A stretch of 64,000 nt of DNA from IMG/VR virus record IMGVR_UViG_3300028044_000003, positions 32,001 through 96,000 of that record. One strand, 5' to 3'. Below are positions 1,944 through 59,364 of the stretch, piece after piece (position 1 is the stretch's first letter; the number at the start of each line of letters is the position of its first letter). Under the pieces are notes generated by a model. It made no database searches, had not been told where the DNA came from, and saw only the letters and a list, made by a program, of their open reading frames with translations. Position numbers and translations under genes: made by a program. This DNA comes from a virus.

Positions 1944-1949
1944 TCATTG

Positions 1950-1985: not shown

Positions 1986-1986
1986 C

Positions 1987-2007
1987 ATATCAACCTACCT
2001 ATTAGAA
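1987..2007 (+). promoter_or_regulatory. repeated early promoter-like motif, copy 6
   Basis: ATATCAACCTACCTATTAGAA. Confidence 0.6.
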
Positions 2008-2042
2008 TACAACACAGCCACGTCTCCGACCAAGAACATGAT

Positions 2043-2325: not shown

Positions 2326-2387
2326 TTCCCGAGTCATTTACACGTTTCATTTTTCATTCACAAATCCTAAAAAACAAGGAGGACACC

Positions 2388-2882: not shown

Positions 2883-3238
2883 TTATATGAATTAGTTGTG
2901 GTTCATAAGTGATTGATAGTGAGAGAGTTGGAGAGGTATTGTTACCTCACCCTCTTTCATTGTCCACTTAATTGTACGAGAATCAGAACTGGGCGCCCGG
3001 CGCACCTCATAGCTAGTCTCTAAGAGAGTAGATACACTTATACTTGAAACACTATACTCGTTATAGTGTTTCTCGTATACTTGTTTCGTATACTCACTTA
3101 CTTGTTTTATCATTTACTTGGTTCTTGTATCTGGTAACCGAGGGTTTGATTCCTCTTTCTTTTATTTTAGTATCCAGGTGATTAAGGCGTGAAAATCGTG
3201 CGTTGATTATTAATCAGGTTCACCAAATCCTTCTATAT

Positions 3239-3622
3239 ATGATTTCACCTATCATTACTCTTTCTAACGATAAGAAAGTTATAAACTTTTCGTCTCCTCA
3301 TGATTTTCATTTTGTTGATGGTACTATTTTACCCAGGATATCTGACGAAGATGCCGAGCGTTTAAAAGTAACATTCATCGAAAATGTACATGATAATGGC
3401 GATGTTGAGTTATCCTTTACCCTGGGTCCAGAAGTACATACCAGGATGATGGAATGTAAAACGTTATGGGATAATGATCTAGTAGACGTTGTTTACTGTC
3501 CGTTACCTATGATTACCGCTCTCAAAGAATCCGGGTATGATCTCAAAAACTCTCCGTTTCGAGCAATTCGTGTTGAAGACCGTATCAAAAAACTTGTCTC
3601 TATCGACAAACAATGTATTTAA
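3239..3622 (+). CDS. hypothetical protein
   Basis: track ORF 3203..3622; ATG at 3239 preferred. Confidence 0.75.
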   Translation: MISPIITLSNDKKVINFSSPHDFHFVDGTILPRISDEDAERLKVTFIENVHDNGDVELSFTLGPEVHTRMMECKTLWDNDLVDVVYCPLPMITALKESGYDLKNSPFRAIRVEDRIKKLVSIDKQCI

Positions 3623-3637: not shown

Positions 3638-3694
3638 AGAATAGTTCAGCACATTTCAAACATCAATCTGCTAAATTGAATTGTATCTATTCTG
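3638..3694 (+). ncRNA. TCAGCA stem RNA copy 1, with a Ser(GCT)-like anticodon arm
   Basis: AGAATAG/CTATTCT-G stem, TTCAGCACATT, internal TCAAT-CTGCTAA-ATTGA. Confidence 0.6.
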
Positions 3695-5234: not shown

Positions 5235-5314
5235 ATTGCCCAAAAAATTCGCTCTATCGATTTGATAGAGCGGATTTCCCTCTCATTATTTTGTCACCAA
5301 ATCAATTACCAAAT

Positions 5315-46200: not shown

Positions 46201-46485
46201 AAAATCTTTTAATTTATTTTCAAGGTTGTTAGCTAATTCAGGATTAGAATCAAATAGTTCTTGAACACTCGGTTTTACTCCTGGTTTTATTTCTTGTACT
46301 ACTCGTTCACCAGGTTTATTAAAACCCATATTTCTGTCAGAAATCTTTTTAATAACTTCTTCAGGAGTACGTATAACACCATCGTTCTCTAACCAATCCC
46401 TCATTGCTTCAAACTTACCGATCAAAGGATTATTTTCTAAAGCTTTCCACTCTGGAGAATTAAAATTAGGACAAGAATTTTTCAT
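37204..46485 (-). CDS. giant polyvalent virion protein (two nucleotidyltransferase modules, ART-like, zincin, LysM-like)
   Basis: 3093 aa; TGS..L...HDLD twice; VYH..GIYFS..NLKNP..GYDS; HEFAH; GDTMDSISTRYNI. Confidence 0.75.
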   Translation of the reverse strand: MKNSCPNFNSPEWKALENNPLIGKFEAMRDWLENDGVIRTPEEVIKKISDRNMGFNKPGERVVQEIKPGVKPSVQELFDSNPELANNLENKLKDFLTSINVDTIVVNNLQKRLQEKGLNSNAVAVSDILHKAVFLDSNKYNTLDYAEEVATFAIEFMGASKHAEASPLIRRALENIASWEKYQQYYDLYKNDPIYKNNERKLKVEILSKLLAERIVENKDRTKKTKQDKKLTTLETIINGILALFNKIWKSDYYKAVDRFLKQRGIETKGVNKVNIRPFDAVINEIVDDILFNNTSKIVNNSSRARKGETVVSLKEVLENNSTINKIYHKLNSLGFMFTGSPALSNEGTVYRESNDNLHDLDWQVPKELQDNWLDLVKSTFPDLTYKINPKTNQAQVFSKGEKTTHTLIIKGMPVDFFININPPSNKNTFGDMRWQDTFEAKMDIGRNKDIRDLIDFKTSFNDYFSNPNYLYYSLGQIKPGVEELFDSNPELANAVYEALGFNTVVKSKAIITNDERIPEYDDKDFKNAQVALKPEIYDFEADKINELLDLFIPKINKAISLGAVKFTLIRPFYTETHSIEDIGDKALENRDKLRDELLNDLKTFLKSKGFTTNDEGYDFTKEITPQQKQQAQQLYSQYLDTIFSDSKVKDIVYHEGKADFEKFDLNFAIETPGIYFSYYKSSGIFGDKIKRLLLNLKNPYIEDDSLQYDSLEQKYKDKFIQNGYDSIITPGDIGLIFEPEQIHILGSKQDIEGFREFVTQSFTNVKPGVEEQINFEDLLSSKLIDFLNSLNFTTEFKNELLHEFNPLAVTDLLYKTIRIKNNFKDEGLLKETAYVAYSFLGKKNKIRTDLVYSIENINNYQQIFEDYKKRSPQLNDYTIKELIVIDFIADAIKNNFENPRDSYQNRKADYWRIDGNSKLEKQIKYYLSKVKQFLEKLFLNTKLTNDELQNLLSDIANDVLNNTFDKFGTILDTEQQITNYNNTIEKDEKAKEIISKFQKLGLLLTGSLSLRKQGTLYREITEDLHDLDFTVTLDKQGDYFNKLYKDIKSQFEGASETGKIFLMEKFQKELAKNYKKHPLLNSIKKEYPSFKITNSFKGLKKNDVTITGSIDGYLIDLFFVSDLELDKNEKGFQDWEPIFESKIKMGRAKDIRDFANYIPFNRKSDGSFANIKGFRHFTFSNKNTFIDNKVDSDTITSEDVYDQLREEFIRENSIQEIEPNASEEDRSLSIVFQIAEKLSNKLRVPFQIITSDKAFELTTGTKNPWKGQKAFFLGGKVYFVGNNIDFETQFHEFAHPFVRALMVENPRLMNDLYEKFIATPEGQVILQQTLDEYSGVQDNSGIVKEEVLVKAIQLSASKKAQGIKPDNILPTLIQRFFTGLRTFLNKLFGNKPVSRINENSTLYDLAEILLDDEQFELDSTKITQGDIVAYQNNNAELIKSIMDVTNDNAAPVFEIVKDMYDKARGTIRAMNPLKDKELIEALKDEYQRGDLYDLTQNLNKLKLELEKDLELTKDRANRFVVTLNRVENMVSKLREHIKVINSDLSDLTKKQNLDYIKKLKYYENIINYWSNFTKNTMNVFNNDLKLKTDDPIYSFVNNIDENLENARKEVQGDNETGYLKGVGQVLWEQWEDMAERNDKYYTEIIRTLQLNGAPQSQIEAYHKEYYGLTISEKETYDRLSSARSLNIKDKAQLERLKRKMYTEGVILTKEKILETLKGNLGDSNYFNGWLEGYMYQSDPVIGGFAKFLKDALIEVNVKSFDTYYNQTEVLKPLLDALGYTQRQQGKLGREIGFKDKRGFEEDGEIKPKEVWAFIDKFKDVDYTISQKKLEIRQLKEEYDRTRDSEIEKELNQKKTEYLEYLRKWFHQPYTDVFYAKDDIFKNSAEGAAARELRDNWFNDLNAQTDPDLALDDEALVAENLRALRIRYKEMYSYYDRNGNFKNEFDRKITDILIEHRKLTRNFYEERERIGVFENEFNAFKDRLITVELLDPVTQAEEIRRREDEWLKENTYQRLKVDADGKVIYYNVLREKIQQLNAIKDRMPQGDKQREAMEKISKLLEQQISMVNISKDDNNTPDGTIMSEEQIDTLADIQEQINSLRQDILNVNGFTKKESAQLRGLYRSLDRGIPGIQQLISSLYATAKARKRKAGINDKDLERYNLLVQEISDMSSKEPTEYYLDILNDKIKNIEGLPDDFMLKNFGQDVNEITISNVDRLYENILGLDNEVLKELFKASPEFKAWFEKNHYQEVYYDKDRDNEIEVWKRLNIWTVKTPVGDEYYKKREVTYSNGDVVSINRIPNYKYIRKVVKKEYTDENGNVVKLRTEKIVGKTVTNTKEWLPKELPDSPFRNERYYELKNASPDSRDGKLFKLLEKVKEFHLKNQEGKPVRSRLYYDFPRFESSLYEKIITSKEDRQRGISKTLGKKFPIFEYIIRRIRQFYQKAKDDGLETLNPDLDYDLVRVTSEGIEPDTIPVQGLYNIPIDDVSTDFITSMYAYASSLIKQEKLIEIHPIAKALDQVLKTNTPKELEKLDKKNFLNNAIEFVKGDSNVRSNIYETLMKREFYDERLLGFGKNSKPIQTFSKFIFGRASMAMFALNIPAALKDYLGSKYQKMLLMSGGKYIDPKSIAKGEAWAFKVMSEKSFGSASEGMGPQIYQIGAKTLNVQLTELFQVSMKDPRESFARAASRSLPSDVLGMSWLYNFREWLQGQSETSLFGAMMYKQTVYQYDKPIAYMDAWEIRDGVLTIKEGIDPDYGPRKTTHLFVTGDTMDSISTRYNIPIDELKKRLGLENFNDVEPGTELTIATGAKFKDMLNKFNIVQQSLEGNYANMNQPLAQGFLFFRFISYLKKFFTTMFVERFAFAGDPLSGNIRPRYNPGLNELKMGFYISTLRNLYRLSKNTSEQWGIMNQEERFNMLRMPLEIMGLIFIQSLLLPLFGWDEDDDEKYEKLREKSGDLPLPFIADDPEHPFRLMGWAENHALLLAMNVRSENETFIPLPGFGLDDYTKLLDFQSLAFGPTIESYSKMGALGYHTLMNNERAYYKRDSGPYEWQQEGGSKFITTLAKSIGIDGSNVSPIEKIKQKISIKNRSAGG
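44169..45053. repeat. 21-bp perfect intragenic direct repeat pair
   Basis: GTTCTTCTACTCCTGGTTTAA at 44169-44189 and 45033-45053. Confidence 0.85.
45005..46262. repeat. 34-bp perfect intragenic direct repeat pair
   Basis: TTAGCTAATTCAGGATTAGAATCAAATAGTTCTT at 45005-45038 and 46229-46262. Confidence 0.9.
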
Positions 46486-46494: not shown

Positions 46495-49400
46495 TTATTT
46501 AAAACAAGTTACGAAATTACTAATAACATCTTGATCTGATACAGGTTGTTGTGAAGTTACTATGTCTTTAAGTTTTTGAGATGAAGTTTCTATTATAAAA
46601 CCAGGGTTATAATATCCAAAGTTTTTTAATAACTCGTTAGATAAATAAAGAAAACCTCCCCTATAATCATCTTTATTCAAACTTTGACCATAACCACTAG
46701 AACTTAACATTAAGCTTTTATCTTGGATATCTTCTCTAAGCTGTGTAATAAAATTATCTACATCAGTTTTTAGTTTAGGATTAGCAACCAAAATACCTTT
46801 ATCATTTCTAACATCTTTAAGATTTGTTTTTAATATATCAAATTTTATTACGTTTGGTTTATTAGGTATTTTTTCTGTTACACCCACACCGTCTACTAAA
46901 AATAGAGCTCCTGGAAACATTGAGTATACATTTTCCATCGCATTATTATCCCGGTACTCAAATATGTTTTCTTTTAGAGGTTTAACAGTGTCAAAAAAAA
47001 TACTTTGATCAGTACTTACATCAGTTAATAGTTCTTTTAAAGATTGAATTTTACTTATTGGTGAAACATTAACAGGGGTTACTTTTGTAGTTACACTAGG
47101 TTGAGTAAATTGTATAGATTTAAGTTCCCCTCTAACTTCCATAAGAAGTTTGGAAAATCTACCTTTATCTTGTTCTATACCATTATATTTATGTGTAAGT
47201 TCAGCATTTCCTGTAGCTAATAACTTAGCAAGAGCATCTGGATTTTGTTGGAAAGAATCTTTTAATAATGCTTTCATAATTGTTGGAGACATGTTATCCC
47301 AAACTTTCTGATCTAATCCTTTAAACTCTTTTCCTAATTCTCTAAGTCTTTTACCATCTTTAGTATCTTTTATAACACTACCTACAGCTCGATTATTCTC
47401 ATTCTTAGGAGAGAACTCAGTTTTATAATATTGAAACGCTTGTTCTACAGAATCAAAATTTATACCTAAGTGTATAAAAGGTCTAATAGCAAAGTTACTT
47501 AACTCAGCATTCTCTCCTGTACCAGCGTAAATATTAATCTTAATTCCTGCTGCTACTAAAGGATTTGATTCTAGAATCTTGCTTGTCATCTTCATTCCTG
47601 TCTTTAAGTCTACATTACTAATGTAAACCTCACCTGTTTCTTTGTCTACTAAATTATACAAGTCATTATCTTGTAATATCCACTTAGAAGACTGAGGAGC
47701 TTTTTCTCTTTTACCTGTAGATTTATTATAAAACTCTTTAAATCTTGTATTAGTAGTAAAAAATTCTTTAGGCATCTTACCATCAGATTTTTCTACATAT
47801 TGATTGTATGCATCTATATCTGATTGAGAAATAATTTTTACACTTTCACTTTCATCTTCTTCTTGAGGTTTTACTTCAGTACCCCAATCATATTTATTAA
47901 TAAGATAATCTAAAGCTGTAGCGTGAGTAGCATAATTCTTTTCTTCATAATAAAGAATAGGACTTTTTATTATTTTACTTGATTTAATATCGTTAATAAT
48001 AGCTTGTCTATATTCTTTTGTAGCATTAGTATTACCAAAATTATTACCAGTAATCATCCACTCAATAAACTTTTTAGTAGATTTTATACCTTGTTCTTTT
48101 CTTGTACCTGTTTCATCTGCAAAATCAAAAGGATTACCTACAGTGTTTCCATCTTTATAATTTTGTAAAAATGTTTTTTTCTTGTTTCCTCTGTATGCAA
48201 TTAGCATAGGTTTCTTACCAGGAAACTTATAATCAAACATAGATTTTGCTTCTGGAACAATATCATTCCAAAAGTTTTTACCTGTATATTCTGTGTTTTC
48301 TTCTAAATCTTTAGGTAAGATAACATTTTCTGATTGTATTAAATTGTCTTTGTTTATGTCAGAATAAATTTCTTCTGCTGTTAAAATAACTTGCGGTTGA
48401 GTAGTAAGTTTAGCTGGTGTTGCGGGTATACCTGGTTCTAAATCCGCAGCTCTTCTAAATGTAAGGGTAATAGTATAATTAGTAATAACTCTACCATCTG
48501 AAAGTTTAATTGGCGGATAAGGATTCTTCTTTATATTTCCTAATGGCGTTGTGTGAGAGAGAGCAAATCTACCTTTACCATCCATACCAAATGTATAAAT
48601 AGTACCATCTTTAGTAGCAATTTCATTAGTAGGTTTTCTTCCTTGGTAATCTTCTTTATAGGCACCTTGGAAAGTTATCTTACCTTTATTATCATCCCAT
48701 ATACCAAGGCCAGAATTATTACCTATTGTATAAACAACAACAGGATATCCTTTAGCAGACTTAGCTTCTGTAGTATCTCTATGCGGAGCTATACTTTGGT
48801 TATCTAAATATATGTTTCCCAATATAGAATCATAATCAGACATATCTAGACCTAAAGCGTTTTGTATTTTATCAATTAACGGTTGTAAATCTGATATAGG
48901 AGGTAAAGGATTACCGTTTTGATCTAATTCGTGATAGTCATAAATATATTTTGACTTATCTACTGTTAATCCAGCTTTTTTTAGAGCCGCTATTTGTTGT
49001 TTAGTTTTTTCAACACCAGCAAAAGAATTAATTAATAATGGTTTTGCTTTAAGATTTACTCTTGACCACATACGACCAAAAGAAAACTGCCAGTTAGCAT
49101 TAACTCCAACATTTTCTTTATAAGCTTGTCTCTGAATTTGAGGAGCTATAAGATTTATAATTTCTTGAGTATCAACTTTTGTAGGATTTGTATCAACTTT
49201 AACAACACCGTAATCTGGAGAAACTACTTTAATTTCAGAAATAAAATCTGATGTTGCCGATATTTCAGATATTTTTTCTAAACCTTTACCAGCTAAAACT
49301 TTATTGATAGCTTCTAACTCTTTAACTTGATATTTTCTTAACTCTTCAAGAGTTTTAAATCTTTTTAATAATTGTACTTCGTTAGTTATTGTAAAAAATA

Positions 49401-52400
49401 AATCTACTACCGGTAAATGGTGTAAAGAACCTGTTAATACTGTATACCCACGTTTTGCAAATTCTTTTAATCTACCTCTAACTCTTTCCTTAACTTCATC
49501 ATTTTTATAACTATATTTTTTTGAAAAATCTAAAATAATACCTTGAGGAGTTGTTTCGGTAGTTTTAAACTCAGGAACTACTTTATATATTTCTTCTATA
49601 GTAATGTCATCAGCGTCAATAACGCTTAAAGGGTTTTTAGATTTAAAAGTTGTTTTACCAGAGCCAGGAGTAAGGTATATAACCTTACCGCGATATTCGT
49701 CTTTTATAGTAATATATTTATCAATAATTATATCAGTGTTGTTTGATAAAAAGTCTGCTGAATAATTTTTAGTTCTAGAACCAAAAAATCTATTTAATAA
49801 AACGTTATAGTCAGTTAATATATTTTGATTATCAGAAATAGATCTGATATATTTATTAATTACTTTTGGATTAAGTACATCTAAATACCTTTGAGGATTT
49901 ACTAATCTCGTTAAAGTGAATTGGGTACCGGATATAAAACCTGATTGTAATAACGCTACTATCTCAAACTCTTCAAAAAACTCAGATATTGCCCTATTAA
50001 TCTGAACATTTTCTACTTTTTTTACTGTAGGATCTTTTAACTGATTTAACTCATAATTTAGAACTTGTAGTAAATCTTTAGTTAACTGTACGTTTTTTAA
50101 AGTCAAATTTTTATAACCGCGGAACTCGTTTATGTTTAAGATTTCTACCAGCTTATAATCATTAACCAATTTTGGATAACGGTTTTTTATATTATAAAAC
50201 CTCTGAGCATAATTATTACTTTCTGTAACATCTTCGTTTATAACTGTTTGGAATATAGCTCTTGGATTATAAGTTTTTCTAAGAGCTTGATTTTTTAACC
50301 ATTTTTCGTATTTTTCTACTCTTTTTACTTTATCTTCAATGTCTTTGTACTTAGTTTCTATAGGGAACATTACCCTGAATAACTCTCTCTGTACTAAAAA
50401 TTCAGCAAACTGTTTATCATTAGTAAAATAACCCTTATAGCTTTTATCCCTATATGTTTTAATATTTTCATCAGAAATTTTATCTACCGGTTTATTATAC
50501 TGTACGGTTTCTCTGTATAATTTTTTTACAGTAATAGGATCTATATAAATAGTATACTTATCCTCAGTTTTTGTAACAATTACTCCAAATTCAGAATAGT
50601 TAATTTTTTTAGCTTCTGTATCTTTTTTAAACTTGACTTCAACTCCTTTAAAACTATTAGCTTTAGTGTAATCAAACTCTAAAATTTCTTTTTGGAAAAT
50701 GTAAGTAAGTAGGTGATTCTTAAAAGTTTTTACTTTATACTCTTTATCATCTTTATTAAGAGTATTTTTTACTACATCGCTTGCTATAAAATTATTTAAC
50801 TCTAGGTTATTTCTTAGAGGAAATAATTTTGAAATAAACGCTTCAAGATAATCTTTGATAAAAAAAGATTTAAGCATTGTTTCTTTTTCTAACGCTTGTA
50901 TTTTATCAAGAGGTATACTATCGTCTTTTTTAATTTTATTAATTTGTTGTTCTTTTTCAATTAGCTCGTATAACGATGCTGGACGAGTAGTATCTGGATT
51001 AAAGTTTAATTTAATAGCTCTAACCTTATCTGACATTTCTTCTACTTCTAAGTAATGTAAAAAGATAAGCTGTTCGTATAATTTTTTAACTTCTGGTTCT
51101 ATATTTTGCGTCTCATCATCGATTAAGTTTTGTAAAACTTCTTCTAAAACTCTACCATCATCATCTAGATTAATATTATAATCTAGATTTAATCGATCTT
51201 TAATACTACTTATTTTTACATAAGGATTTGAAATATCATTTTGCGAAAGACCTAATTCTTCACCTATTTTAAATTTTACTTCACTAGTATTTGTTTCAGA
51301 TAATAAACTATTTGCAGCAATTTTACTATCGATATATTCAACAATAATCGGCTGACTCATAAAGTTAACTATAGTAGTAAACGGAACACCGGCCTGAACT
51401 AAGAATAATATTTTAGGAGCGGCCTCTTTGTTACCCTGGATATTAAAAATCCAAGGATCTTTTGCTACGTCTACCCATCCGTTAATTAACTGAGATATTA
51501 CATCAGCTATACGGTTAACACCATTCACATCCGTAACATCAGATAAAGAAATAGCTTTTTCATTATCTACTATTAGACTTCTATGTGGTATTAAAAGTCT
51601 TTGAGGAAGCCTTTTAGGAACAGTATTATTTGTTCTTGTAGGATTCATATACATCCCTACAATATTGAATAATGTGTTAAAAGTATTATCTACGGCGCCA
51701 AGCCCTAAAGCTTGTTTACCAACAGAGTTAGAAGTATGACTATGTAAATTATATCCGTATTCAAATATTTTCGTTTCAGCTATTAAAGGTTTTTCTTCTG
51801 TACCTAAAAAACCATCAATCGTTTTGTTTCTAAAAGGATTGTATTTTTTAGATTTAGAAGCCATTCTAGTAGCTTCTGGTTTAGCAATATCAGTATCGTT
51901 TGGTGTAATTAAAGATTTAAAATTACTATCTAATGCTAGTATATCTTTTACTACATTAATAAGATTGTTCTCTAAACCTTTTACAGTATTTTCTGAGGTA
52001 TCATATTTTACAACACCATCTTTAATACTAAGGTTAGGCATAGTTACGTTTAACTTATCAACGTCAAAATCCGAACCTGATTTAACAACAATTTCTATCG
52101 GAGGAATAATAATATTACCTGCTTCTTTTGGTAAAAACTCTGCTACCTCCATAAACTCCATAGAGTTATGGCCTTGTACAGGAATACGTACACCAATCAT
52201 AGTAATCATTTTACGATTACTACCAGTATTTAACCAAGTTTCATTCTTAATTAATTTATTAAGATTTGCTAAAGAAGCTTTATAGTTTAATTCTTTTTTA
52301 GGTTTACCGTTCTCATCTTTTACTTCATCATAAACAGCTACTTCTTTTAGATAAAGTAGTTTTTCAAAATCACCTTGTATGGCAATTTTAACTTGCATAC

Positions 52401-55400
52401 TTACTGTACCGTCTTTACCCTTGTGATAAAACCTTAAACCGTTGGTACCGTATTTAAGTATATCTTTTTGATCGGGTTTTTTAAAACCAGATTGTTGCCA
52501 GCCTACACTAGATACCTGGATTAAACCTTCTCCCTTAACTTTTTGAGTAATTAATTTTCTAACAACAAGAGATGTAATTAATTTTTCAATTTTTTCAGCT
52601 TGAGGGGTTAAAGAAAAATCTACATTGTTTAATTCTGTAGCTGAAAAGTTTAAAAAATCTAATTCATAATCTGCGATCTCTTGACGCGTTAATTCTTTTT
52701 TTACAAACTCTACAAGGTTTATTAATTTACCAGAAGGTTTACCGTTTTTTATCTCCCAGCCTATTTCATTAAGTAGTTCTTTTTTCTTAGCTTCAGTTAA
52801 ATCATTTACTACTCGGTTATAGTCTTGTAATAAACGATATTCTTTAGACTGTAGTTTTATTTCTTTAGGTTCAGAGTTCCATAAAGATATCCTATCTTCT
52901 AAACTTAAACCTTCGTTTATTTTATAATCGGCAGGAACCCCGTTTACCATTAAACTTTCAGCTACAAGTTTTCTTAACTGACTGGCAAATATTACTTTCT
53001 TTTTAAACTTAGGAGCAATGTCTACCTGATTTTTAAGATACTTTAGATGTATTGTGTTTTTAGTATACTCAAAATTGTTATTGTTTGATAATGTGTTACC
53101 AGCTTCGTTTAAATATTTATCTGGATTATCTTTCCTAGAAAGAGTTCCCACCTTAGATCCGGATATAAATGTAACGTAACCTATATTTTCCCTGGTTAAT
53201 TTATCGTGTAATTCTTTAAGTATACTATTTTCACCTATTACTGAAGGGATTAACGGCATTAAAGAATACTTATGAAAAGCGGTTATAGGTAAACCATTAG
53301 TTATTAAAGGCCCGTAATATTGATCTTTCATAACCGGGAAGAACTCAAGAATATCTTCTAAATTAACAGTATCACCGTTAAGTATTTTATTGTAAAGAAC
53401 ATCTTGATCGTTTGACCAAGTACCTTTTAAATAATTTAACTCGCGATATTTATCAAAAGTTATATAACCCTGAGCATTTGTAGATTCTTCTTTTCCAGTA
53501 TATTTAGAAGCTTTTTTAGAACCTAAGATTTCTTCAAAAGCAGCAGCATAGTCCGACTTAACCGTTTCATCTTGTAATACAGCGGTATTCATAGTACCGT
53601 CAAATAACTCGTCATATTCTACGCCAAGTTTTTGAGCATAAGTTGAAAAACGATTATTAGGTTTAACTGTTGTTCTTAGATTATTAATAAAACTTAAAGC
53701 TTTTTTATCAGTTCTATAAATATTACCAGTAGAACCGGCACCTGCTATACGTTTATTAGCTTCTTGTTTTGTATGTTCAAAAGAAGCAACGTTACCGTAA
53801 AAAATAGTGTAAGCTTCTACGTTATTTATAAACGTATTAGCAAACATAAATCTAGAAATAACATCAAACCTTTCATAAATATTTAAGTTTGATAATTTTT
53901 TATCATTTAATAATGACTCACTAAACCCAATACTTAGTTTCTTGTTGGTTATTAAGTCTGTTAACGGATTTAAAATATCTGCTTTGTAACCTTTATTAAA
54001 GTAATTTGTAATATCAGTTTGTATTTTACTTAATAAAACTAGATCTTTACTATTAAGATATTCTTCTAGCTCACTTGTTTTTAAATATTCTTTATTTTCT
54101 AAAAGTGTTAATAATTCTTCTTTAGTATCTTTTCTTAAGATATCTTTAAACATTAAAAAATCAGAACCTCTCTGAGCATATTTCCAATCAAATACAGCGT
54201 TAGTACTTTTGTCTAAATCCCTTAGTATTTTTATACGATCTAATTCAGCGTTTAAATAACCTATAAGGATATTGGTAAAAGTCTGAGTACCGGTATTTTT
54301 ATCTTTTATAAAAGTATCCAAATCAATATAAGCTCTGGAATTACTTCCTAATACTTTGGTTAAAGAATAACTATAAGAAGTAGACTTATCTGAATGACGA
54401 GGTAGTTCAAATATTCCAAGTTTTATAGCTAAAGCTATATCAGATACTCTTTTTGTTGTAGGATCTGCTGAGGCAAGTGCAATACCTTTACTAAACTCTT
54501 CATCATCGTATATAGCTGTACCACTAAGATTTTGTAAGTCTAATTTAACATTAGCTGCGTTTTGAAAATTAGATTCTTTTAATTTGTTACCGAAAGTTTT
54601 TAAACCGTTTTCATCAGTTATTTCTTCAAACAATGATTTTAATACGATAGATCTTTTTGCATCCGGATTTCGTTTAATATCAAAATGACTCATCCAGGGT
54701 AACGTTATAAGCTCCTGGTAAGTGTTTACTTCATTTATCGTATTAGTTATAATCGTTAGTTCGTTATTTAAACTATGTTCAAACTGAGTCTCTCCTTCAG
54801 CGTTTAAAACCATAAACGATAAATTAGTCTCACCGTATGTAGCTTCTAGTTTAGCATAATTTTCAAATAAATAACTTAGATCTACTATATTCTCAGAATC
54901 AGATTCCTTCCAAAACTCGTCTACAGTTAAATTATTATTTTTTAATTTACTGATTTTTGTAAGTATAGTTTTAAGATTGTCTTGTGATAAACCTATTTGA
55001 CTATCACCTAGTTTAATAGAATCTTTGATTAAACTTGTATTACTTACATATACTCCTAGAGAGTGTAAAAAAGATATAGGGTTTTCTTTAACCTTATCAA
55101 GACTATTGAAATTTTTAAATATTTGACTCAAGTTAAGTACCTTGGTCGTATAAGTTTGATCATTTCTTTTTACATCAATAGAATAAATAGACTCTTTAGT
55201 TTTAAAATTATCTCGCCATAAAGATTTTAACTTGCTAGTTTGACCATAAGATTTACCAGCAGTTACTTCCCAACCAGTAACATCTTCTCCTAACTCTGTT
55301 CTTTTTAAATTTACTTGTAGTAATTTAATATAAGACTTGTTAAAAGATTGCCAGAAACGAGTTTGTAATTTGAATCTTTCTACATCAGAACCTATTTCAT

Positions 55401-58400
55401 CAATACCGCCTAATCTTTCAGCTATTTGACCAAATATATTAGTTAAGTCTTTATCACCACGTTTAATTATATTCTGATACATTTTATCAAAATCTAAATT
55501 ATTTTGTGTAGCGGTGATAGCTTTATTCCAGGCTATGTTAAAAGGAATAAACTTTGGAGTACCGTAACGATTTACTTTTAATACTTTTCTGTCTTCTTTA
55601 ATATCATAGTCTATCATAGTACCTAACATAAATTGAATTTCTTCAAAGGCCAATTCCTGGGTAGACTTATCGATACCTGTTCTGTCAGCGTACTCTGAAA
55701 AACCTTGTTCTCGTTTTTCAGCTTCTATAGCATCTTGTTCTTCTTGTGTTAGATTTTCTTTAACTGGTTGTTTAGCAGCTTCTTTACTTTTTTCCTCTAA
55801 TAAATCTTTAGCTTTTAGAGGGATGATATTAGATTTTCTTATATGATAATTTATTAAACCACCTTTACTACTGTTAAGATTATCTAATATATTATCAAGA
55901 TTTCCAAAATTATCAATAGCTAAAGACAATTCTTGAAACTTATTTAATAATAAACTATAAGCATCAGTATTAGTACTAGTATTTTTAAGTTGTAAATTGG
56001 TTAACGATCTTAACAACTCAAGATCTGATTTAACTATCTGGTATGCTTTTTTTAATTTTTCAGGATCGTTTATATATGTTAAAAAATTTCCTTCATAATT
56101 TTGTTTACCAATAACTGGTTCAAGATTTACTATACTATTGTATATTTTATCTTTATAAATTTTTTGTTCGTCTGTATCAGACGGTAAGTTATTATATTTA
56201 TTTATAATTGCTTGAAGCTGGTCTTTAGTAAATGTTTTTGTAGCACTTGAATAATTAATTTCAGTATTATTAACTACTGCAGAAAAATAATAATCCATAC
56301 TAGATAATATTTCTACACTAGAACCACCTAAAAGAATATTTTCTTGTTTTTGATTATCAGTTTGATAAGTCTTTGGTCCTTCGTAAGCTAATGAATCAAA
56401 CCTTTTAAAGTTATTCCAGGAAAAAGGTTGTTCAAACAAAGGCCCTTTACCAGTATTTAGCTGTTCGTACATATTATAGAGATATGGTACCGATGATTGT
56501 CCTTTAGCTAAATCTATAGTAGTTAGATTTTTAAATAACTCAATTAGTAGATCTTTAATTTTTCTGAATATATCTTTCTTAGCAGGGGCTTTTACAAACT
56601 CACCTTTACCTGTTAACATGTATTTTCTAAAATCTTCAGCTAAATACTCTTCTAACTCCAGGTCTGAAGCTTTACTAAATTTTACAAAAGAACCAGTATG
56701 GGTTTTAAATACTCCAGGTAGTTTACGAGCTTCTGAGTAAAGCTTATCTTGTTGTTCTTTTGTTAATAGGGTTTGAGTAAATATATGCCAAGCTTCGTGA
56801 TACAAATCAGTAGAGTCAGAACCCATGTATAAAGTAACGCCGGCTCTATTAAACTCAGCTACTTTTTCCATGTTCATAATACTCCTCATATCGTTCATCT
56901 TCCAAATATCGGAAGCCATTCGTGCTGCTGGATGATTAGCAAACCATTTATTAGCTCTTTCTTCGTATTGTTTTAAATCAGAACCTAACTGATTTTCAAG
57001 AGCTTTCTGAGTATTGTTTTTATCAAGTCCTAATAGTTCACTTAATAAATCTTCATCTTCATCAGGTTTTACCTCTAGTATAGTTTTATTCTCAAAAGTT
57101 ATGTAGGGATTATAGAACTTAACTTTATTATCAATAGAAGTATAAAAAGGTAAAGTAAAATTGTTTTTTATAAAACTACGATAAGAGATTACATTATCTA
57201 TTATTTGATTCTGGTCGTTTATTTCAAAATCATTAATCATGAAATTTCGAACGCTTTCTTTAATATGCAGTTTAGCTTTTTCTATAACATAAAATTTATC
57301 ATTAAACTTAAATACATCATTTACCTTTAGTTGGCTTTCAGAAACTACTTTACCTTGTAATAAAAATTTACCTTCAGAAAAACTGTAAGGTTTATTTTTA
57401 TAATTTTCTATTTGTAAATCACTTAAGTCTTCTTCTTTATCGGTTTTAGGGTTACCGTGTAGACCGTTAAAGTATTTTTGTAAAGCTTCAACAAATTTTT
57501 CTTTATTTATTTTTTCAATTTTGTTACCAATAACTTGTTCAAAAATAAAATCGTTATTATTATTTCTCTTTAATATAAAAGATTGAAAATTAACGGTTAA
57601 TAATAAGTTATTATCTTTAATAGTTAATTGAAAACCAGAACTTGCTTTAATATTAATAAACGTTTCAATTATATCTTTAATTTCTGAATTAACTAAAACC
57701 TTATCCGAACTATCTGTTACTTTTTCAGTTAAAAGTTTTGTTATGTTTTGAGCATATTTAGAATCAAAAGTTAATTCTTTTCTTTCGATAGTAACCGGTA
57801 TATTTAAAGTTGCTGTCTGATGCTGAATAGTTACCTCACCGTTATTATTTATTGTATAATTAAAAGGTATTTCTACATTATTAACTTTAAAATCTATATC
57901 AGATAATAGTGTATAATCATTTTTATCATCTTTTCGTATAACAGTCCCATAACTACCACCCACTATATTAAAAGATTCTTTATAACCAACTTCTTTATTT
58001 TCAAGATATTTGAATGTTTTATAAAGATCTAGTAACTGGGATTTTATTATAGAATCAACTTCTTTTGTTTGTTCGTTTTTAAACGTACCCTTGATATTAT
58101 AAACTTTACTTAATTCAATAACTACTGTACTATATACATTAGTTTTAGAATTATTAAACACTGTATCATCTATTACATCTATACCTAGTTCATCTTGTTT
58201 AACTAAATCAGATAATTTAACTTTAGAGTCAATCCCAAAAGAACTTAAATTAAAAGGATTTGTCTTTTTAGATTGGCCCGTTTTATTACTTATATCAAAC
58301 GTATCTGTGTTAAAAAGAATTTCTGTATCATCTTCAAAAGCAAATGTAGAATAGTAGTTATTTTTTTCTTTAACAATAATTACTTTTACTTTTTTATCAA

Positions 58401-59364
58401 ACATTAACGGAGTACCGGATACATACAAGTTACTTACGACACTTCTAATAGCAGCTTCGTATAAATTATTTAATAGAATATTTGGCCTTTCTACATTTAT
58501 ATTTGTAGTTTCTCTATTAAAACTAGGATTATCAGAAGCTTTTTTTAAAGCTATATTATCATCTGGTATATTAGAAAGTTTTGGATTAGATTCTGTTCCG
58601 GGTAACATATAAGCCATATCGGTAAATATTACCTTACCTTGTTTAATATAATAGTAAGGTTTAAAACCCTCTTCCCACTTAGAACTGTTTGGTAATTTAA
58701 CTAAATAAGGGGCCGTTATATTAACAGTACTTGATATATTAAATATATTATGAGGAATTACTCTGTAATTAGACGCTTTATTTTCTTGACCTAATAAAAT
58801 TTGAACATCGTTTGATGGATCAATAGTTCTATCGTAAAGACTGATATCTCTTTTTAAGTCACTTAACTGAAGAACTATTGTTTGGTTTTTTATATAACTC
58901 TTACTTAGTTCTTCTAAAGCTTTTACTGATTTATTATCTTCATTTTTTTTTATTTCTTCTTGAAGAGCTAATTCTTCATTTACTGAATTAATATTAGCAA
59001 TACTAATTACATCTTGTGATTCGCTAACATAACTAGCAACTTCTGATAATCCATCTACAGAATCAAATTTTAGTTTAAGTTGATTTATTATGTCTAGAGA
59101 TAAACCAGAAGCGTCAAATCTTTTAGTAAACTCTTCATTAGCACCATAAACATTTAGTATACCGGAAGGTATTAACTTAACATAAGCTAGGGCTAATACT
59201 GGCGCTTTACCTTTACTAAGGTAAGCGTTATAAATAAACTTCATAAAATCTTCTAGATCATAATTATCAGAAAGTTCATTTTGTAATAGTCCGATAATAT
59301 TATCTAATGTTTTTTTTTTCTCTTGGTCTGTTAATCTAATTTCCAGACTACAATTATTACTCAT
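46495..59364 (-). CDS. crAss-like virion RNA polymerase with zincin domain and C-terminal accessory domains
   Basis: 4289 aa; GVRIPVQ and SGSDFDVDK (52057-52071); HEAWH; P-loop, AlkB-like and NADAR motifs at the C-terminus. Confidence 0.85.
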   Translation of the reverse strand: MSNNCSLEIRLTDQEKKKTLDNIIGLLQNELSDNYDLEDFMKFIYNAYLSKGKAPVLALAYVKLIPSGILNVYGANEEFTKRFDASGLSLDIINQLKLKFDSVDGLSEVASYVSESQDVISIANINSVNEELALQEEIKKNEDNKSVKALEELSKSYIKNQTIVLQLSDLKRDISLYDRTIDPSNDVQILLGQENKASNYRVIPHNIFNISSTVNITAPYLVKLPNSSKWEEGFKPYYYIKQGKVIFTDMAYMLPGTESNPKLSNIPDDNIALKKASDNPSFNRETTNINVERPNILLNNLYEAAIRSVVSNLYVSGTPLMFDKKVKVIIVKEKNNYYSTFAFEDDTEILFNTDTFDISNKTGQSKKTNPFNLSSFGIDSKVKLSDLVKQDELGIDVIDDTVFNNSKTNVYSTVVIELSKVYNIKGTFKNEQTKEVDSIIKSQLLDLYKTFKYLENKEVGYKESFNIVGGSYGTVIRKDDKNDYTLLSDIDFKVNNVEIPFNYTINNNGEVTIQHQTATLNIPVTIERKELTFDSKYAQNITKLLTEKVTDSSDKVLVNSEIKDIIETFINIKASSGFQLTIKDNNLLLTVNFQSFILKRNNNNDFIFEQVIGNKIEKINKEKFVEALQKYFNGLHGNPKTDKEEDLSDLQIENYKNKPYSFSEGKFLLQGKVVSESQLKVNDVFKFNDKFYVIEKAKLHIKESVRNFMINDFEINDQNQIIDNVISYRSFIKNNFTLPFYTSIDNKVKFYNPYITFENKTILEVKPDEDEDLLSELLGLDKNNTQKALENQLGSDLKQYEERANKWFANHPAARMASDIWKMNDMRSIMNMEKVAEFNRAGVTLYMGSDSTDLYHEAWHIFTQTLLTKEQQDKLYSEARKLPGVFKTHTGSFVKFSKASDLELEEYLAEDFRKYMLTGKGEFVKAPAKKDIFRKIKDLLIELFKNLTTIDLAKGQSSVPYLYNMYEQLNTGKGPLFEQPFSWNNFKRFDSLAYEGPKTYQTDNQKQENILLGGSSVEILSSMDYYFSAVVNNTEINYSSATKTFTKDQLQAIINKYNNLPSDTDEQKIYKDKIYNSIVNLEPVIGKQNYEGNFLTYINDPEKLKKAYQIVKSDLELLRSLTNLQLKNTSTNTDAYSLLLNKFQELSLAIDNFGNLDNILDNLNSSKGGLINYHIRKSNIIPLKAKDLLEEKSKEAAKQPVKENLTQEEQDAIEAEKREQGFSEYADRTGIDKSTQELAFEEIQFMLGTMIDYDIKEDRKVLKVNRYGTPKFIPFNIAWNKAITATQNNLDFDKMYQNIIKRGDKDLTNIFGQIAERLGGIDEIGSDVERFKLQTRFWQSFNKSYIKLLQVNLKRTELGEDVTGWEVTAGKSYGQTSKLKSLWRDNFKTKESIYSIDVKRNDQTYTTKVLNLSQIFKNFNSLDKVKENPISFLHSLGVYVSNTSLIKDSIKLGDSQIGLSQDNLKTILTKISKLKNNNLTVDEFWKESDSENIVDLSYLFENYAKLEATYGETNLSFMVLNAEGETQFEHSLNNELTIITNTINEVNTYQELITLPWMSHFDIKRNPDAKRSIVLKSLFEEITDENGLKTFGNKLKESNFQNAANVKLDLQNLSGTAIYDDEEFSKGIALASADPTTKRVSDIALAIKLGIFELPRHSDKSTSYSYSLTKVLGSNSRAYIDLDTFIKDKNTGTQTFTNILIGYLNAELDRIKILRDLDKSTNAVFDWKYAQRGSDFLMFKDILRKDTKEELLTLLENKEYLKTSELEEYLNSKDLVLLSKIQTDITNYFNKGYKADILNPLTDLITNKKLSIGFSESLLNDKKLSNLNIYERFDVISRFMFANTFINNVEAYTIFYGNVASFEHTKQEANKRIAGAGSTGNIYRTDKKALSFINNLRTTVKPNNRFSTYAQKLGVEYDELFDGTMNTAVLQDETVKSDYAAAFEEILGSKKASKYTGKEESTNAQGYITFDKYRELNYLKGTWSNDQDVLYNKILNGDTVNLEDILEFFPVMKDQYYGPLITNGLPITAFHKYSLMPLIPSVIGENSILKELHDKLTRENIGYVTFISGSKVGTLSRKDNPDKYLNEAGNTLSNNNNFEYTKNTIHLKYLKNQVDIAPKFKKKVIFASQLRKLVAESLMVNGVPADYKINEGLSLEDRISLWNSEPKEIKLQSKEYRLLQDYNRVVNDLTEAKKKELLNEIGWEIKNGKPSGKLINLVEFVKKELTRQEIADYELDFLNFSATELNNVDFSLTPQAEKIEKLITSLVVRKLITQKVKGEGLIQVSSVGWQQSGFKKPDQKDILKYGTNGLRFYHKGKDGTVSMQVKIAIQGDFEKLLYLKEVAVYDEVKDENGKPKKELNYKASLANLNKLIKNETWLNTGSNRKMITMIGVRIPVQGHNSMEFMEVAEFLPKEAGNIIIPPIEIVVKSGSDFDVDKLNVTMPNLSIKDGVVKYDTSENTVKGLENNLINVVKDILALDSNFKSLITPNDTDIAKPEATRMASKSKKYNPFRNKTIDGFLGTEEKPLIAETKIFEYGYNLHSHTSNSVGKQALGLGAVDNTFNTLFNIVGMYMNPTRTNNTVPKRLPQRLLIPHRSLIVDNEKAISLSDVTDVNGVNRIADVISQLINGWVDVAKDPWIFNIQGNKEAAPKILFLVQAGVPFTTIVNFMSQPIIVEYIDSKIAANSLLSETNTSEVKFKIGEELGLSQNDISNPYVKISSIKDRLNLDYNINLDDDGRVLEEVLQNLIDDETQNIEPEVKKLYEQLIFLHYLEVEEMSDKVRAIKLNFNPDTTRPASLYELIEKEQQINKIKKDDSIPLDKIQALEKETMLKSFFIKDYLEAFISKLFPLRNNLELNNFIASDVVKNTLNKDDKEYKVKTFKNHLLTYIFQKEILEFDYTKANSFKGVEVKFKKDTEAKKINYSEFGVIVTKTEDKYTIYIDPITVKKLYRETVQYNKPVDKISDENIKTYRDKSYKGYFTNDKQFAEFLVQRELFRVMFPIETKYKDIEDKVKRVEKYEKWLKNQALRKTYNPRAIFQTVINEDVTESNNYAQRFYNIKNRYPKLVNDYKLVEILNINEFRGYKNLTLKNVQLTKDLLQVLNYELNQLKDPTVKKVENVQINRAISEFFEEFEIVALLQSGFISGTQFTLTRLVNPQRYLDVLNPKVINKYIRSISDNQNILTDYNVLLNRFFGSRTKNYSADFLSNNTDIIIDKYITIKDEYRGKVIYLTPGSGKTTFKSKNPLSVIDADDITIEEIYKVVPEFKTTETTPQGIILDFSKKYSYKNDEVKERVRGRLKEFAKRGYTVLTGSLHHLPVVDLFFTITNEVQLLKRFKTLEELRKYQVKELEAINKVLAGKGLEKISEISATSDFISEIKVVSPDYGVVKVDTNPTKVDTQEIINLIAPQIQRQAYKENVGVNANWQFSFGRMWSRVNLKAKPLLINSFAGVEKTKQQIAALKKAGLTVDKSKYIYDYHELDQNGNPLPPISDLQPLIDKIQNALGLDMSDYDSILGNIYLDNQSIAPHRDTTEAKSAKGYPVVVYTIGNNSGLGIWDDNKGKITFQGAYKEDYQGRKPTNEIATKDGTIYTFGMDGKGRFALSHTTPLGNIKKNPYPPIKLSDGRVITNYTITLTFRRAADLEPGIPATPAKLTTQPQVILTAEEIYSDINKDNLIQSENVILPKDLEENTEYTGKNFWNDIVPEAKSMFDYKFPGKKPMLIAYRGNKKKTFLQNYKDGNTVGNPFDFADETGTRKEQGIKSTKKFIEWMITGNNFGNTNATKEYRQAIINDIKSSKIIKSPILYYEEKNYATHATALDYLINKYDWGTEVKPQEEDESESVKIISQSDIDAYNQYVEKSDGKMPKEFFTTNTRFKEFYNKSTGKREKAPQSSKWILQDNDLYNLVDKETGEVYISNVDLKTGMKMTSKILESNPLVAAGIKINIYAGTGENAELSNFAIRPFIHLGINFDSVEQAFQYYKTEFSPKNENNRAVGSVIKDTKDGKRLRELGKEFKGLDQKVWDNMSPTIMKALLKDSFQQNPDALAKLLATGNAELTHKYNGIEQDKGRFSKLLMEVRGELKSIQFTQPSVTTKVTPVNVSPISKIQSLKELLTDVSTDQSIFFDTVKPLKENIFEYRDNNAMENVYSMFPGALFLVDGVGVTEKIPNKPNVIKFDILKTNLKDVRNDKGILVANPKLKTDVDNFITQLREDIQDKSLMLSSSGYGQSLNKDDYRGGFLYLSNELLKNFGYYNPGFIIETSSQKLKDIVTSQQPVSDQDVISNFVTCFK

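What the first reader, a model, noticed from the sequence alone, without database searches (positions are those of the whole stretch)
47100..49700. Virion RNA polymerase carries a tail of nucleic-acid repair and anti-defence domains
Seen, in order after the polymerase core: a P-loop kinase-like domain (LTPGSGKTT, about 49270-49700); an AlkB-like 2OG-Fe(II) dioxygenase (GNIY..IAPHRD..H..TLTFRR, about 48430-49200); a DUF4326-like domain (GNPF..F.EW..HA..L, about 47880-48330); and a NADAR/YbiA domain (LSNF..SVEQAFQ..W..M..F.QN..LL.TG..L...LMEVR, about 47120-47540). Short T/Q/P-rich linkers separate them. Established: crAss-like vRNAPs are packaged and delivered with the genome. Inference: enzymes that remove alkyl or ADP-ribose marks arrive tethered to the first transcribing enzyme, before any phage gene is expressed.
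Basis: partly seen in the sequence, partly recalled or inferred. Interest (0 to 1): 0.74.

Follow-up and report, generated by a model that had tools for sequence, protein, structure and literature searches.

The report
Phage RNA polymerase carrying swappable enzymes
An uncultured crAss-like phage has fused a string of five small enzyme modules, borrowed from other phages, onto the end of the RNA polymerase it probably packs into its particle. This suggests that phages trade ready-made nucleic-acid repair or anti-defence tools as plug-in parts of an injected protein.

Summary
One 4289-aa ORF (window 46495-59364, minus strand) is a crAss-like virion RNA polymerase homologue: HEAWH zincin motif, DFDVD catalytic motif, match to phi14:2 gp66. 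About 1085 extra residues follow its conserved part.

Verdicts on the four named domains:
- **NADAR:** confirmed (Pfam 49 bits, cut-off 35.1; phage-type active site).
- **AlkB-like dioxygenase:** supported (Pfam 27.9 bits, below cut-off; hhalign to E. coli AlkB P 1e-5; HxD...H, N, Y and R210 kept, R204 lost).
- **"DUF4326-like":** weak lead only (Pfam model fails; 9 of the top 50 weak viral fold hits carry that name).

Two parts were missed: an unassigned 103-aa module and a DUF7831-like C-terminal cap.

The new point is that the tail is a mosaic of mobile in-frame cassettes:
- The core is at most 35% identical to any of about 107 relatives, while modules reach 86-92%.
- The AlkB cassette is 83-84% identical in DNA, with sharp ends.
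- CpG is depleted.
- Module order differs in every relative.

Delivery with the virion and the anti-defence role remain inference. This is a new variant of polyvalent phage proteins. An overlapping window of this scan noted the same stretch, and cassette exchange was reported for the neighbouring protein.

The parts
46495..59364 (-). Single ORF of 4289 aa (P0001): zincin-like region, crAss-type vRNAP core and accessory tail
   Evidence: An identical 4289-aa protein is in the public collection (P0002).
56485..57027 (-). Zincin-like region (residues 780-960) with HEAWH at residues 856-860 (nt 56785-56799)
   Evidence: Motif seen in the sequence. The region is conserved in 70 of 120 relatives. 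No Pfam or PDB sequence match. The zincin assignment rests on the HExxH motif and on the literature for gp65 orthologues.
49753..56487 (-). vRNAP core and conserved C-terminal region (residues about 960-3204), with catalytic DFDVD at residues 2432-2436 (nt 52057-52071)
   Evidence: tblastn matches 'putative RNA polymerase / RNAP catalytic subunit' of crAss001, crAss002, IAS virus and Carjivirus communis, and phi14:2 gp077 (2180 aa, MS-verified structural protein) at E 2e-7 around the motif. The DFDxD motif with V at position 4 fits the description.
49234..49752 (-). K module: P-loop kinase-fold domain (residues 3205-3377); Walker A at 3231-3239, IDADD at 3249-3253
48397..49233 (-). A module: AlkB-like 2OG-Fe(II) dioxygenase cassette (residues 3378-3656)
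   Evidence: Pfam PF13532 at 27.9 bits, E 3e-6, below the 31.2 cut-off. Homologous modules in P0003 and P0057 pass it. hhalign of 67 modules against E. coli AlkB gives Prob 82%, P 1e-5. H3528/D3530/H3604 correspond to H131/D133/H187, N3517/Y3519 to N120/Y122 and R3637 to R210, all invariant; R204 corresponds to T3631. 83-84% nt identity to four IMG/VR contigs, ending sharply at residues 3378 and 3656-3663. CpG o/e 0.55.
47860..48396 (-). D module: GNPF-motif domain, at best a remote DUF4326 relative (residues 3657-3835)
47551..47859 (-). U module: unassigned about 100-aa domain (residues 3836-3938)
   Evidence: Recurs in 19 relatives at up to 69% identity, often directly before A or D. No Pfam, PHROG or Atlas match. 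Zero CpG in 309 nt.
47095..47550 (-). N module: phage-type NADAR domain (residues 3939-4090)
   Evidence: Pfam PF08719 at 49.1 bits, above the 35.1 cut-off. PHROG 1017 at E 2e-17. Weak matches to YbiA 2b3w and NADAR 8bau. E3974, K3981 and W4022 align with E43, K50 and W89 of the P. nicotianae NADAR, and H4058 sits at the position where phage NADARs carry His. Only copy in the genome. CpG o/e 0.28.
46498..47094 (-). T/Q/P-rich linker plus DUF7831-like C-terminal cap (residues 4091-4289)
   Evidence: A local iterated HMM finds the last about 100 aa within 5-50 residues of the C-terminus of some 25 of about 35 matching relatives. These include P0003 and P0057, where the match overlaps Pfam DUF7831 hits. 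This copy has no direct Pfam hit.

Best explanation
The ORF is a polyvalent form of the crAss-like virion RNA polymerase. A gp65-like zincin region and a gp66-like two-barrel polymerase are fused. Behind the conserved part sits an array of in-frame enzyme cassettes, closed by a conserved DUF7831-like end domain. The cassettes are a P-loop kinase, an AlkB-like Fe(II)/2OG dioxygenase, a GNPF domain (a possible DUF4326 relative), an unknown module and a phage-type NADAR.

Shown here:
- The domains are real.
- They are fused in frame.
- At least four of them (A, D, U, N) were acquired laterally from a pool shared by many distantly related phages.

Inferred:
- Because the polymerase is packaged and ejected with the DNA, the cassettes enter the cell as protein before any phage gene is expressed.
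- There they remove base adducts from phage nucleic acid: NADAR removes ADP-ribose placed on guanine by DarT1-type defences, and the AlkB-like module oxidatively removes alkyl groups.
- They also process nucleic-acid or ADP-ribose-derived ends (the kinase and the GNPF domain).
- They act either tethered to the polymerase, which prefers single-stranded template, or after release by the zincin protease.
For: - **Polymerase identity and synteny** with three giant virion genes. gp66 is packaged, transcribes early genes and prefers ssDNA.
- **Domain evidence:**
  - NADAR is above the Pfam cut-off with active-site residues kept.
  - AlkB-like.
  - Kinase fold.
  - The D family is large and folds confidently.
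- **Mosaicism:**
  - The core is at most 35% identical to any relative, while A, D, U and N reach 86-92%. The median excess is 20-30 points.
  - There are 25 different module arrangements, and none equals this one.
  - The A cassette is 83-84% identical in DNA, with sharp ends.
  - CpG o/e is 0.00-0.55 in A-D-U-N against 0.90-0.95 in the core.
- **Link to polyvalent proteins:** ART-PolyVal is found in the neighbouring giant ORF and in relatives.
- **Known precedents:** NADARs remove guanine ADP-ribose, and T4 AdfN counters DarTG1. DUF4326 is often fused to NADAR in viruses.
Against: - There is no proteomic or structural evidence that the tail is in the particle. phi14:2 gp66, the only tested enzyme, has no such tail.
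- The host is unknown, so no DarT1 or alkylating defence can be tied to it.
- The A module misses the AlkB R204 and D135 equivalents and falls below Pfam's cut-off, and a PDB profile search did not find AlkB.
- D fails the DUF4326 model.
- The kinase's substrate is open; its best fold matches are small-molecule or NMP kinases rather than polynucleotide kinases.
- NADARs may have non-DNA substrates.
Confidence: 0.55

Rival explanations
1. The cassettes target small molecules rather than damaged nucleic acid. NADAR and the GNPF/DUF4326-like domain would degrade ADP-ribose-derived immune signals or toxic metabolites, and the kinase would act on nucleotides. The effect would be to blunt NAD+-based defences such as TIR or SIR2 systems at the moment of entry.
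For: Iyer et al. predict exactly this for viral NADAR, Macro and DUF4326 domains. The K model resembles adenylate, shikimate and dephospho-CoA kinases more than polynucleotide kinases. E. coli YbiA, a NADAR, acts on a small molecule.
Against: Every NADAR tested on it removes guanine-linked ADP-ribose from DNA. An AlkB-like dioxygenase fits nucleic-acid substrates better. Fusion to a polymerase that handles ssDNA suggests a nucleic-acid target.
Confidence: 0.2
2. The cassettes serve host take-over and self-immunity. The AlkB-like module would strip methyl marks, for example host restriction-modification protection or RNA marks. The NADAR would be the antidote that keeps phage nucleic acid free of ADP-ribose written by the phage's own injected ART in the neighbouring giant protein.
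For: The adjacent ORF has an ART-PolyVal match (27.9 bits, E 2.7e-7). Three relatives carry ART-PolyVal and NADAR in one protein (P0073, P0097, P0119). Iyer et al. propose methyl-mark resetting for sporadic phage AlkB-like enzymes.
Against: ART-PolyVal domains are thought to modify host proteins, which NADAR is not known to reverse. NADAR is no more frequent among ART-bearing relatives (3 of 6) than overall (about 45%). No target is known.
Confidence: 0.13
3. The tail is not delivered. It would be cut off before packaging, act only late in the producing cell, or consist of passenger cassettes with little function that persist because recombination at this site is tolerated.
For: A zincin motif in the same polypeptide, and the literature's suggestion that such polyproteins are cleaved. 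phi14:2 vRNAP works without any tail. The module set varies freely between relatives.
Against: Catalytic residues are invariant across 64-67 copies of A and N. Modules sit between the conserved core and a conserved C-terminal cap, so they are part of the mature reading frame in over 100 phages. Late-acting enzymes are normally separate genes.
Confidence: 0.1
4. The domain calls are chance motif matches or an assembly chimera.
For: Three of the four named domains fall below, or outside, Pfam's curated cut-offs in this copy.
Against: There is independent profile, fold and conservation evidence for each. The same in-frame fusions occur in over 100 independent assemblies.
Confidence: 0.02

Closest known systems
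Polyvalent proteins of phages and conjugative elements (Iyer et al. 2017, PMC5512222), whose seed case is the N4 virion RNAP fused to zincin peptidases
   Same: A giant virion-block protein that strings unrelated enzymatic domains onto a packaged RNA polymerase, with an HExxH peptidase motif. ART-PolyVal occurs in the neighbour and in relatives. The predicted role is in the first moments of infection.
   Different: The chassis is the crAss-type two-barrel RNAP, not the T7-like N4 enzyme. AlkB, NADAR and DUF4326 are not mentioned in that paper (0 occurrences). Here, recent cassette exchange is shown by identity contrast, DNA identity and CpG.
phi14:2 gp66, the crAss-like virion RNA polymerase (Drobysheva et al., preprint 10.1101/2020.03.07.982082)
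   Same: DFD[IV]D motif, local homology (E 2e-7), synteny with two other giant virion genes, and a zincin-bearing partner.
   Different: gp66 is 2180 aa with no accessory tail. This ORF is 4289 aa, with the zincin region fused at the N-terminus and about 1085 aa of cassettes at the C-terminus. Only 41% identity over 64 aa was detectable.
T4 AdfN (gp30.3) and DarG1-type NADARs (PMC11825919, PMC11543638)
   Same: NADAR fold family. E and K active-site residues are kept, with His at the position typical of phage NADARs. There is a weak Pfam match to Phage_30_3 (22.5 bits).
   Different: Those are free-standing proteins made after infection. This one is a domain of a probably pre-packaged polymerase, and a subtype that lacks the D..W segment near the C-terminus. 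Its activity is untested.
E. coli AlkB / Pfam 2OG-FeII_Oxy_2
   Same: HxD...H iron triad, the N120, Y122 and R210 equivalents, and the TFR motif.
   Different: R204 becomes Thr and D135 becomes Thr. There is a 30-aa insertion and an about 130-aa N-terminal extension. The score is below the Pfam cut-off, and it is fused to a polymerase.
cr126_1 (MT774391.1) 'DUF1768 domain-containing protein'
   Same: A NADAR fused to a giant protein of the crAss transcription block in a deposited genome.
   Different: There the NADAR is at the N-terminus of a 2402-aa protein next to the RNAP subunit, with none of the K, A, D or U modules.

Membership tests
crAss-like virion RNAP (gp66 type) | DFDxD catalytic motif with I or V at the fourth position | tested here: met
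   DFDVD at residues 2432-2436; criterion taken.
crAss-like virion RNAP (gp66 type) | Sequence homology to characterised or annotated crAss RNAPs around the motif | tested here: met
   tblastn to phi14:2 gp077 (2180 aa) at E 2e-7, and to the crAss001, crAss002, IAS and p-crAssphage RNAP genes.
crAss-like virion RNAP (gp66 type) | Block of three adjacent giant virion genes | tested here: met
   ORFs of 1490, 4289 and 3093 aa lie in tandem on the minus strand, as gp078, gp077 and gp076 do in phi14:2.
crAss-like virion RNAP (gp66 type) | Presence in the virion and transcription of early genes | not testable with these tools
   Needs proteomics and infection experiments.
NADAR (PF08719) | Score above the Pfam gathering cut-off | tested here: met
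   49.1 bits against 35.1; 48.1 bits in the six-frame search.
NADAR (PF08719) | Active-site Glu and Lys (E43 and K50 of PnNADAR) and the His/Glu/Asp position | tested here: met
   E3974 and K3981 align. H4058 lies in the conserved LTH.
NADAR (PF08719) | ADP-ribosyl-guanine glycohydrolase activity | not testable with these tools
   Biochemical assay needed.
AlkB-like 2OG-Fe(II) dioxygenase (PF13532) | Score above the Pfam gathering cut-off | tested here: not met
   27.9 bits against 31.2, covering profile positions 47-136 only. The homologous modules of P0003 (32.6) and P0057 (32.5) pass.
AlkB-like 2OG-Fe(II) dioxygenase (PF13532) | HxD...H iron-binding triad | tested here: met
   H3528, D3530 and H3604 are invariant in 67 of 67 modules and align to H131, D133 and H187.
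AlkB-like 2OG-Fe(II) dioxygenase (PF13532) | 2OG-binding RxxxxxR pair (R204 and R210) | tested here: inconclusive
   The R210 equivalent R3637 is invariant. R204 aligns with T3631. An adjacent invariant R3638 or R3599 might substitute.
DUF4326 (PF14216) | Match to the Pfam model | tested here: not met
   No hit at E 10 or less in the module, the whole genome or four relatives. Distant homologues P0184 and P0192 reach only E 0.03-0.055.
DUF4326 (PF14216) | Shared fold with DUF4326 proteins | tested here: inconclusive
   9 of the top 50 BFVD rows are named DUF4326, but all have E above 1 and TM 0.25-0.45. No solved structure is available to compare.
P-loop NMP/shikimate/polynucleotide kinase fold | Walker A plus a kinase-type fold with an Asp after strand 2 | tested here: met
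P-loop NMP/shikimate/polynucleotide kinase fold | Assignment to a specific kinase family or substrate | tested here: inconclusive
   No Pfam family. The PDB profile picks only the P-loop of AAA+ ATPases and weak adenylate kinase matches.
Polyvalent proteins (Iyer 2017) | Several unrelated enzymatic domains in one polypeptide of a virion or early-delivery block | tested here: met
   Polymerase plus kinase, dioxygenase and NADAR in one ORF, inside the giant virion-gene block.
Polyvalent proteins (Iyer 2017) | Zincin-like metallopeptidase domain | tested here: inconclusive
   HEAWH motif, and the region is conserved in 70 relatives, but there is no profile or PDB match.
DUF7831 (PF25176) | Match to the Pfam model | tested here: inconclusive
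   No direct hit. A local HMM from this C-terminus matches P0003 3882-3950 and P0057 4192-4281, which overlap their Pfam DUF7831 hits.

The most novel reading that the evidence does not exclude
The crAss-type virion polymerase serves as a chassis with a recombination-tolerant slot between its conserved body and a DUF7831-like end cap. Distantly related phages exchange ready-made nucleic-acid de-modification enzymes into this slot. The enzymes would then work co-transcriptionally, clearing ADP-ribosyl and alkyl adducts from the single-stranded template directly at the first transcribing polymerase, before any phage protein can be made.
Probability: 0.2. Interest if true: 0.8.

Novelty: new variant of a known kind. 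Interest (0 to 1): 0.55.

Why it matters
Defences such as DarTG act on phage DNA within minutes, whereas known phage counter-measures such as T4 AdfN must first be expressed. If an eraser arrives as protein, joined to the enzyme that makes the first transcripts, that timing problem is solved.

The cassette pool (over 100 giant proteins, 25 arrangements) is a natural catalogue of candidate counter-defence enzymes. It includes two families with no assigned function (the GNPF domain and U) and an atypical AlkB-like dioxygenase. It also shows that the fast-evolving crAss transcription proteins grow by in-frame module capture.

The concept is not new in kind. Polyvalent proteins, including the N4 vRNAP, are established, and a NADAR fused to a crAss giant protein already sits in GenBank under a DUF name.

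Tried and rejected
- **ESM Atlas:** gave nothing usable for D or U.
- **PDB sequence searches:** single-sequence and 5-sequence profile searches did not find AlkB for A. They found only P-loop matches for K and nothing for the zincin region.
- **Word-based homologue searches:** 7 short fragments for D and none for K.
- **The search for related loci with single modules or alignments:** only close relatives. A degenerate DNA pattern for GK.IY.TPG.GKT rescued six K loci.
- **The look-up of encoding contigs:** MSAs for K and A therefore stayed shallow, at 8 and 5 sequences.
- **Tests of DUF4326 membership:**
  - The DUF4326 Pfam model found nothing in the genome or four relatives.
  - 'relatives' is not available for virus records.
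  - P0192 has no match in GenBank phages.
  - D29 gp61, listed among the fold hits, is a SLOG domain, not DUF4326. I therefore had no bona fide DUF4326 sequence for a profile-profile test.
- **Direct repeats:** no strong repeated DNA joints lie inside this tail.
- **Structure prediction:** the two jobs went to D and K, so A, U, N and the C-terminal domain were not modelled.
- **Chance or assembly artefact:** rejected, see rival 5.


Full report
**What is there.** Window 46495-59364 (minus strand) is one open reading frame of 4289 codons. It lies between two other giant minus-strand ORFs (3093 and 1490 aa), downstream of a plus-strand replication block with DNA polymerase, helicases, ligase and exonuclease. 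The genome is a 111.5-kb virus record estimated 93% complete.

I numbered the protein so that residue i begins at nt 59364-3(i-1).

**The carrier protein.** The region around DFDVD (residues 2432-2436) matches genes annotated as putative RNA polymerase or RNAP catalytic subunit in several crAss-like phages: crAss001, crAss002, IAS virus and Carjivirus communis. It also matches a 2180-aa MS-verified structural protein of Cellulophaga phage phi14:2 (E 2e-7).

That phi14:2 protein has the length of gp66. The gp66 paper describes a virion-packaged enzyme with motif 1361-DFDID-1365 that transcribes early genes and strongly prefers single-stranded template. The same paper notes that in some phages the three giant proteins are fused, and that the gp65 orthologue carries a zincin-like protease.

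Here an HEAWH motif lies at residue 856, in a region conserved in 70 of 120 relatives. I could not confirm a zincin fold by profile or PDB sequence search.

By comparison with gp66 (about 820 aa after the motif), the conserved part should end near residue 3200. That is where the accessory modules begin.

**The four named domains.**

- **NADAR (residues 3939-4090).**
  - Pfam 49.1 bits against a cut-off of 35.1, PHROG 1017 at E 2e-17, and weak matches to YbiA and PnNADAR structures.
  - The Glu and Lys shown to matter in NADARs align with E3974 and K3981.
  - A conserved LTH places a His where phage NADARs are reported to carry His.
  - This copy belongs to a subtype, shared with at least four relatives, that lacks the WG.E segment.
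- **AlkB-like (residues 3378-3656).**
  - Pfam PF13532 gives 27.9 bits (E 3e-6), below the 31.2 cut-off. The homologous modules of P0003 and P0057 pass it.
  - A local alignment of 67 such modules compared with E. coli AlkB by hhalign gives probability 82% and P 1e-5 over 138 columns.
  - H131/D133/H187, N120, Y122 and R210 match residues that are invariant in 67 of 67 modules. R204 and D135 match threonines.
  - It is therefore a divergent but probably active Fe(II)/2OG dioxygenase of unknown substrate.
- **P-loop module (residues 3205-3377).**
  - It has no Pfam family, and only eight giant relatives in the first search.
  - A degenerate DNA pattern for its motif retrieved six viral loci, and an alignment-based scan added one.
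  - The eight-row alignment keeps G.IY.TPG.GKT, D.D, K, TG and D invariant; the Lys of the GK.IY motif is kept in seven of the eight rows.
  - The AlphaFold model (pLDDT 74.9) matches adenylate, shikimate and dephospho-CoA kinases by Foldseek (E about 1e-3, prob 0.99).
  - "Kinase-like" is supported, but the substrate is not determined.
- **"DUF4326-like" module (residues 3657-3835).**
  - It folds confidently (pLDDT 83.9) and belongs to a large family: 368 representative clusters at E 1e-3 or less.
  - The Pfam DUF4326 model finds nothing in it, in the genome or in four relatives, even at E 10.
  - Support is indirect. The GNPF...F.xW...H motif pattern is present. Two distant homologues score E 0.03-0.055. 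Nine of the top 50 weak BFVD rows are named DUF4326.
  - PDB comparisons are at noise level.
  - I treat it as a possible remote relative, not a member.

A 103-aa module (U, residues 3836-3938) lies between D and N. It recurs in 19 relatives and has no family.

The last about 100 residues form a domain that lies within 5-50 residues of the C-terminus in some 25 of about 35 matching relatives. In P0003 and P0057 it overlaps Pfam DUF7831 hits.

The accessory modules are therefore inserted between a conserved body and a conserved end cap. In two relatives they lie even further inside, before the conserved segment that corresponds to residues 3000-3204 here.

**The tail is a mosaic of mobile cassettes.** A search with the tail found 146 giant proteins (2.5-6 k aa), and 107 of the 120 listed carry the polymerase core. 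Four lines of evidence point to lateral exchange:

- **Arrangement.** Modules occur in 25 different arrangements, mostly C-terminal of the core but sometimes N-terminal. No relative has this protein's set or order.
- **Identity contrast.** The core (residues 1000-3200) is at most 35% identical to any relative. A, D, U and N reach 86, 92, 69 and 86%. The median excess over the core is 20-30 points and the maximum is 59-67.
- **DNA identity.** The A cassette is 83-84% identical to four IMG/VR contigs, with similarity starting at residue 3378 and stopping at 3656-3663.
- **Composition.**

| Segment | CpG observed/expected |
|---|---|
| Core | 0.90-0.95 |
| K | 1.06 |
| A | 0.55 |
| D | 0.31 |
| U | 0.00 |
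| N | 0.28 |
| C-terminal 199 aa | 0.52 |

By my rough estimate, A to N together hold 18 CpG against about 45 expected.

K and the cap are no more similar to relatives than the core is, so they look like older residents. Earlier notes of this scan reported cassette exchange and CpG depletion in the neighbouring giant ORF. I tested the same signals independently on this ORF and they hold.

**How it probably works.** Shown here: the domains, the fusion, the conservation of catalytic residues and the lateral exchange.

Taken from the literature:
- gp66-type polymerases are packaged and ejected.
- NADARs remove ADP-ribose from guanine in DNA, and T4 AdfN uses this to defeat DarTG1.
- Viral DUF4326 domains are repeatedly fused to NADAR, Macro and SLOG domains.
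- Polyvalent proteins are giant injected multi-enzyme proteins, first recognised from the N4 vRNAP.

Inferred: the tail enters with the polymerase and clears adducts or processes ends on phage nucleic acid before phage gene expression, either tethered or after zincin cleavage. I give this 0.55.

Rivals:
- Small-molecule (ADP-ribose signal) targets: 0.20.
- Host take-over plus self-immunity against the phage's own ART-PolyVal, which I detected in the neighbouring ORF at window 44308-44532 (27.9 bits, E 2.7e-7): 0.13.
- A tail that is not delivered or barely functional: 0.10.
- Artefact: 0.02.

**Comparison with what is known.** In 50,697 GenBank phage records only the NADAR module has matches (5 records). 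One is a 2402-aa "DUF1768 domain-containing protein" directly upstream of the RNAP subunit in crAss-like phage cr126_1. A NADAR fused to a crAss giant protein is therefore already deposited, though I found no discussion of it.

Full-text searches found no paper linking crAss-like RNAPs with AlkB, and none discussing a NADAR fusion to them. The polyvalent-protein paper does not mention AlkB, NADAR or DUF4326. Yutin et al. 2021 call the transcription block "large, multidomain proteins" without naming these domains in the text.

This is a new variant of a known kind: a polyvalent protein built on the crAss-type polymerase, with an unusual enzyme set and clear evidence of cassette traffic.

**Limits.**
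- Only two structure predictions were available, so A, U, N and the cap were not modelled.
- The relatives were found by similarity to this tail, so co-occurrence counts are biased.
- The host is unknown.

Noticed in passing
window 44308-44532 (-), in ORF 37204-46485: The neighbouring 3093-aa giant protein has a sub-threshold Pfam ART-PolyVal match (27.9 bits, E 2.7e-7). An ADP-ribosyl 'writer' therefore sits next to the only NADAR 'eraser' of the genome.
   Followed up: partly
window 44141-44187, 45005-45051, 46229-46275: Three copies of a 47-nt direct repeat (68-89% identity), plus several other repeat pairs, all lie inside the neighbouring giant ORF. No comparable repeat lies inside the vRNAP tail.
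   Followed up: no
window 44052-44076 and 47547-47571: A weak 25-nt match (80%) between the two giant ORFs. Both copies encode a ..NPL.. peptide just ahead of a module (here the NADAR). It may be a shared joint or chance.
   Followed up: no
L010:4143-5189, L013:2152-3174, L015:103-1185: In three IMG/VR relatives the P-loop (K) module sits directly N-terminal of the zincin-like region instead of after the polymerase core.
   Followed up: partly
P0005 (U 3211, A 3327, D 3647, conserved segment 3753-3916) and P0111: Here the accessory modules are inserted before the conserved segment that corresponds to residues 3000-3204 of this protein. The insertion slot is therefore not only at the very end of the conserved part.
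   Followed up: no
L028:8860-16068 (MT774391.1, uncultured phage cr126_1): A deposited crAss-like genome has a NADAR at the N-terminus of a 2402-aa protein annotated only as 'DUF1768 domain-containing protein', immediately upstream of the putative RNAP subunit.
   Followed up: partly
window 47551-47859 (-): The unassigned U module contains no CpG at all in 309 nt, and in relatives it often directly precedes the AlkB-like or GNPF module.
   Followed up: partly
window 5291-6691 (+): A 466-aa protein matches PHROG 850 'RNA-binding protein' end to end (E 8e-125), in the early/replication block.
   Followed up: no
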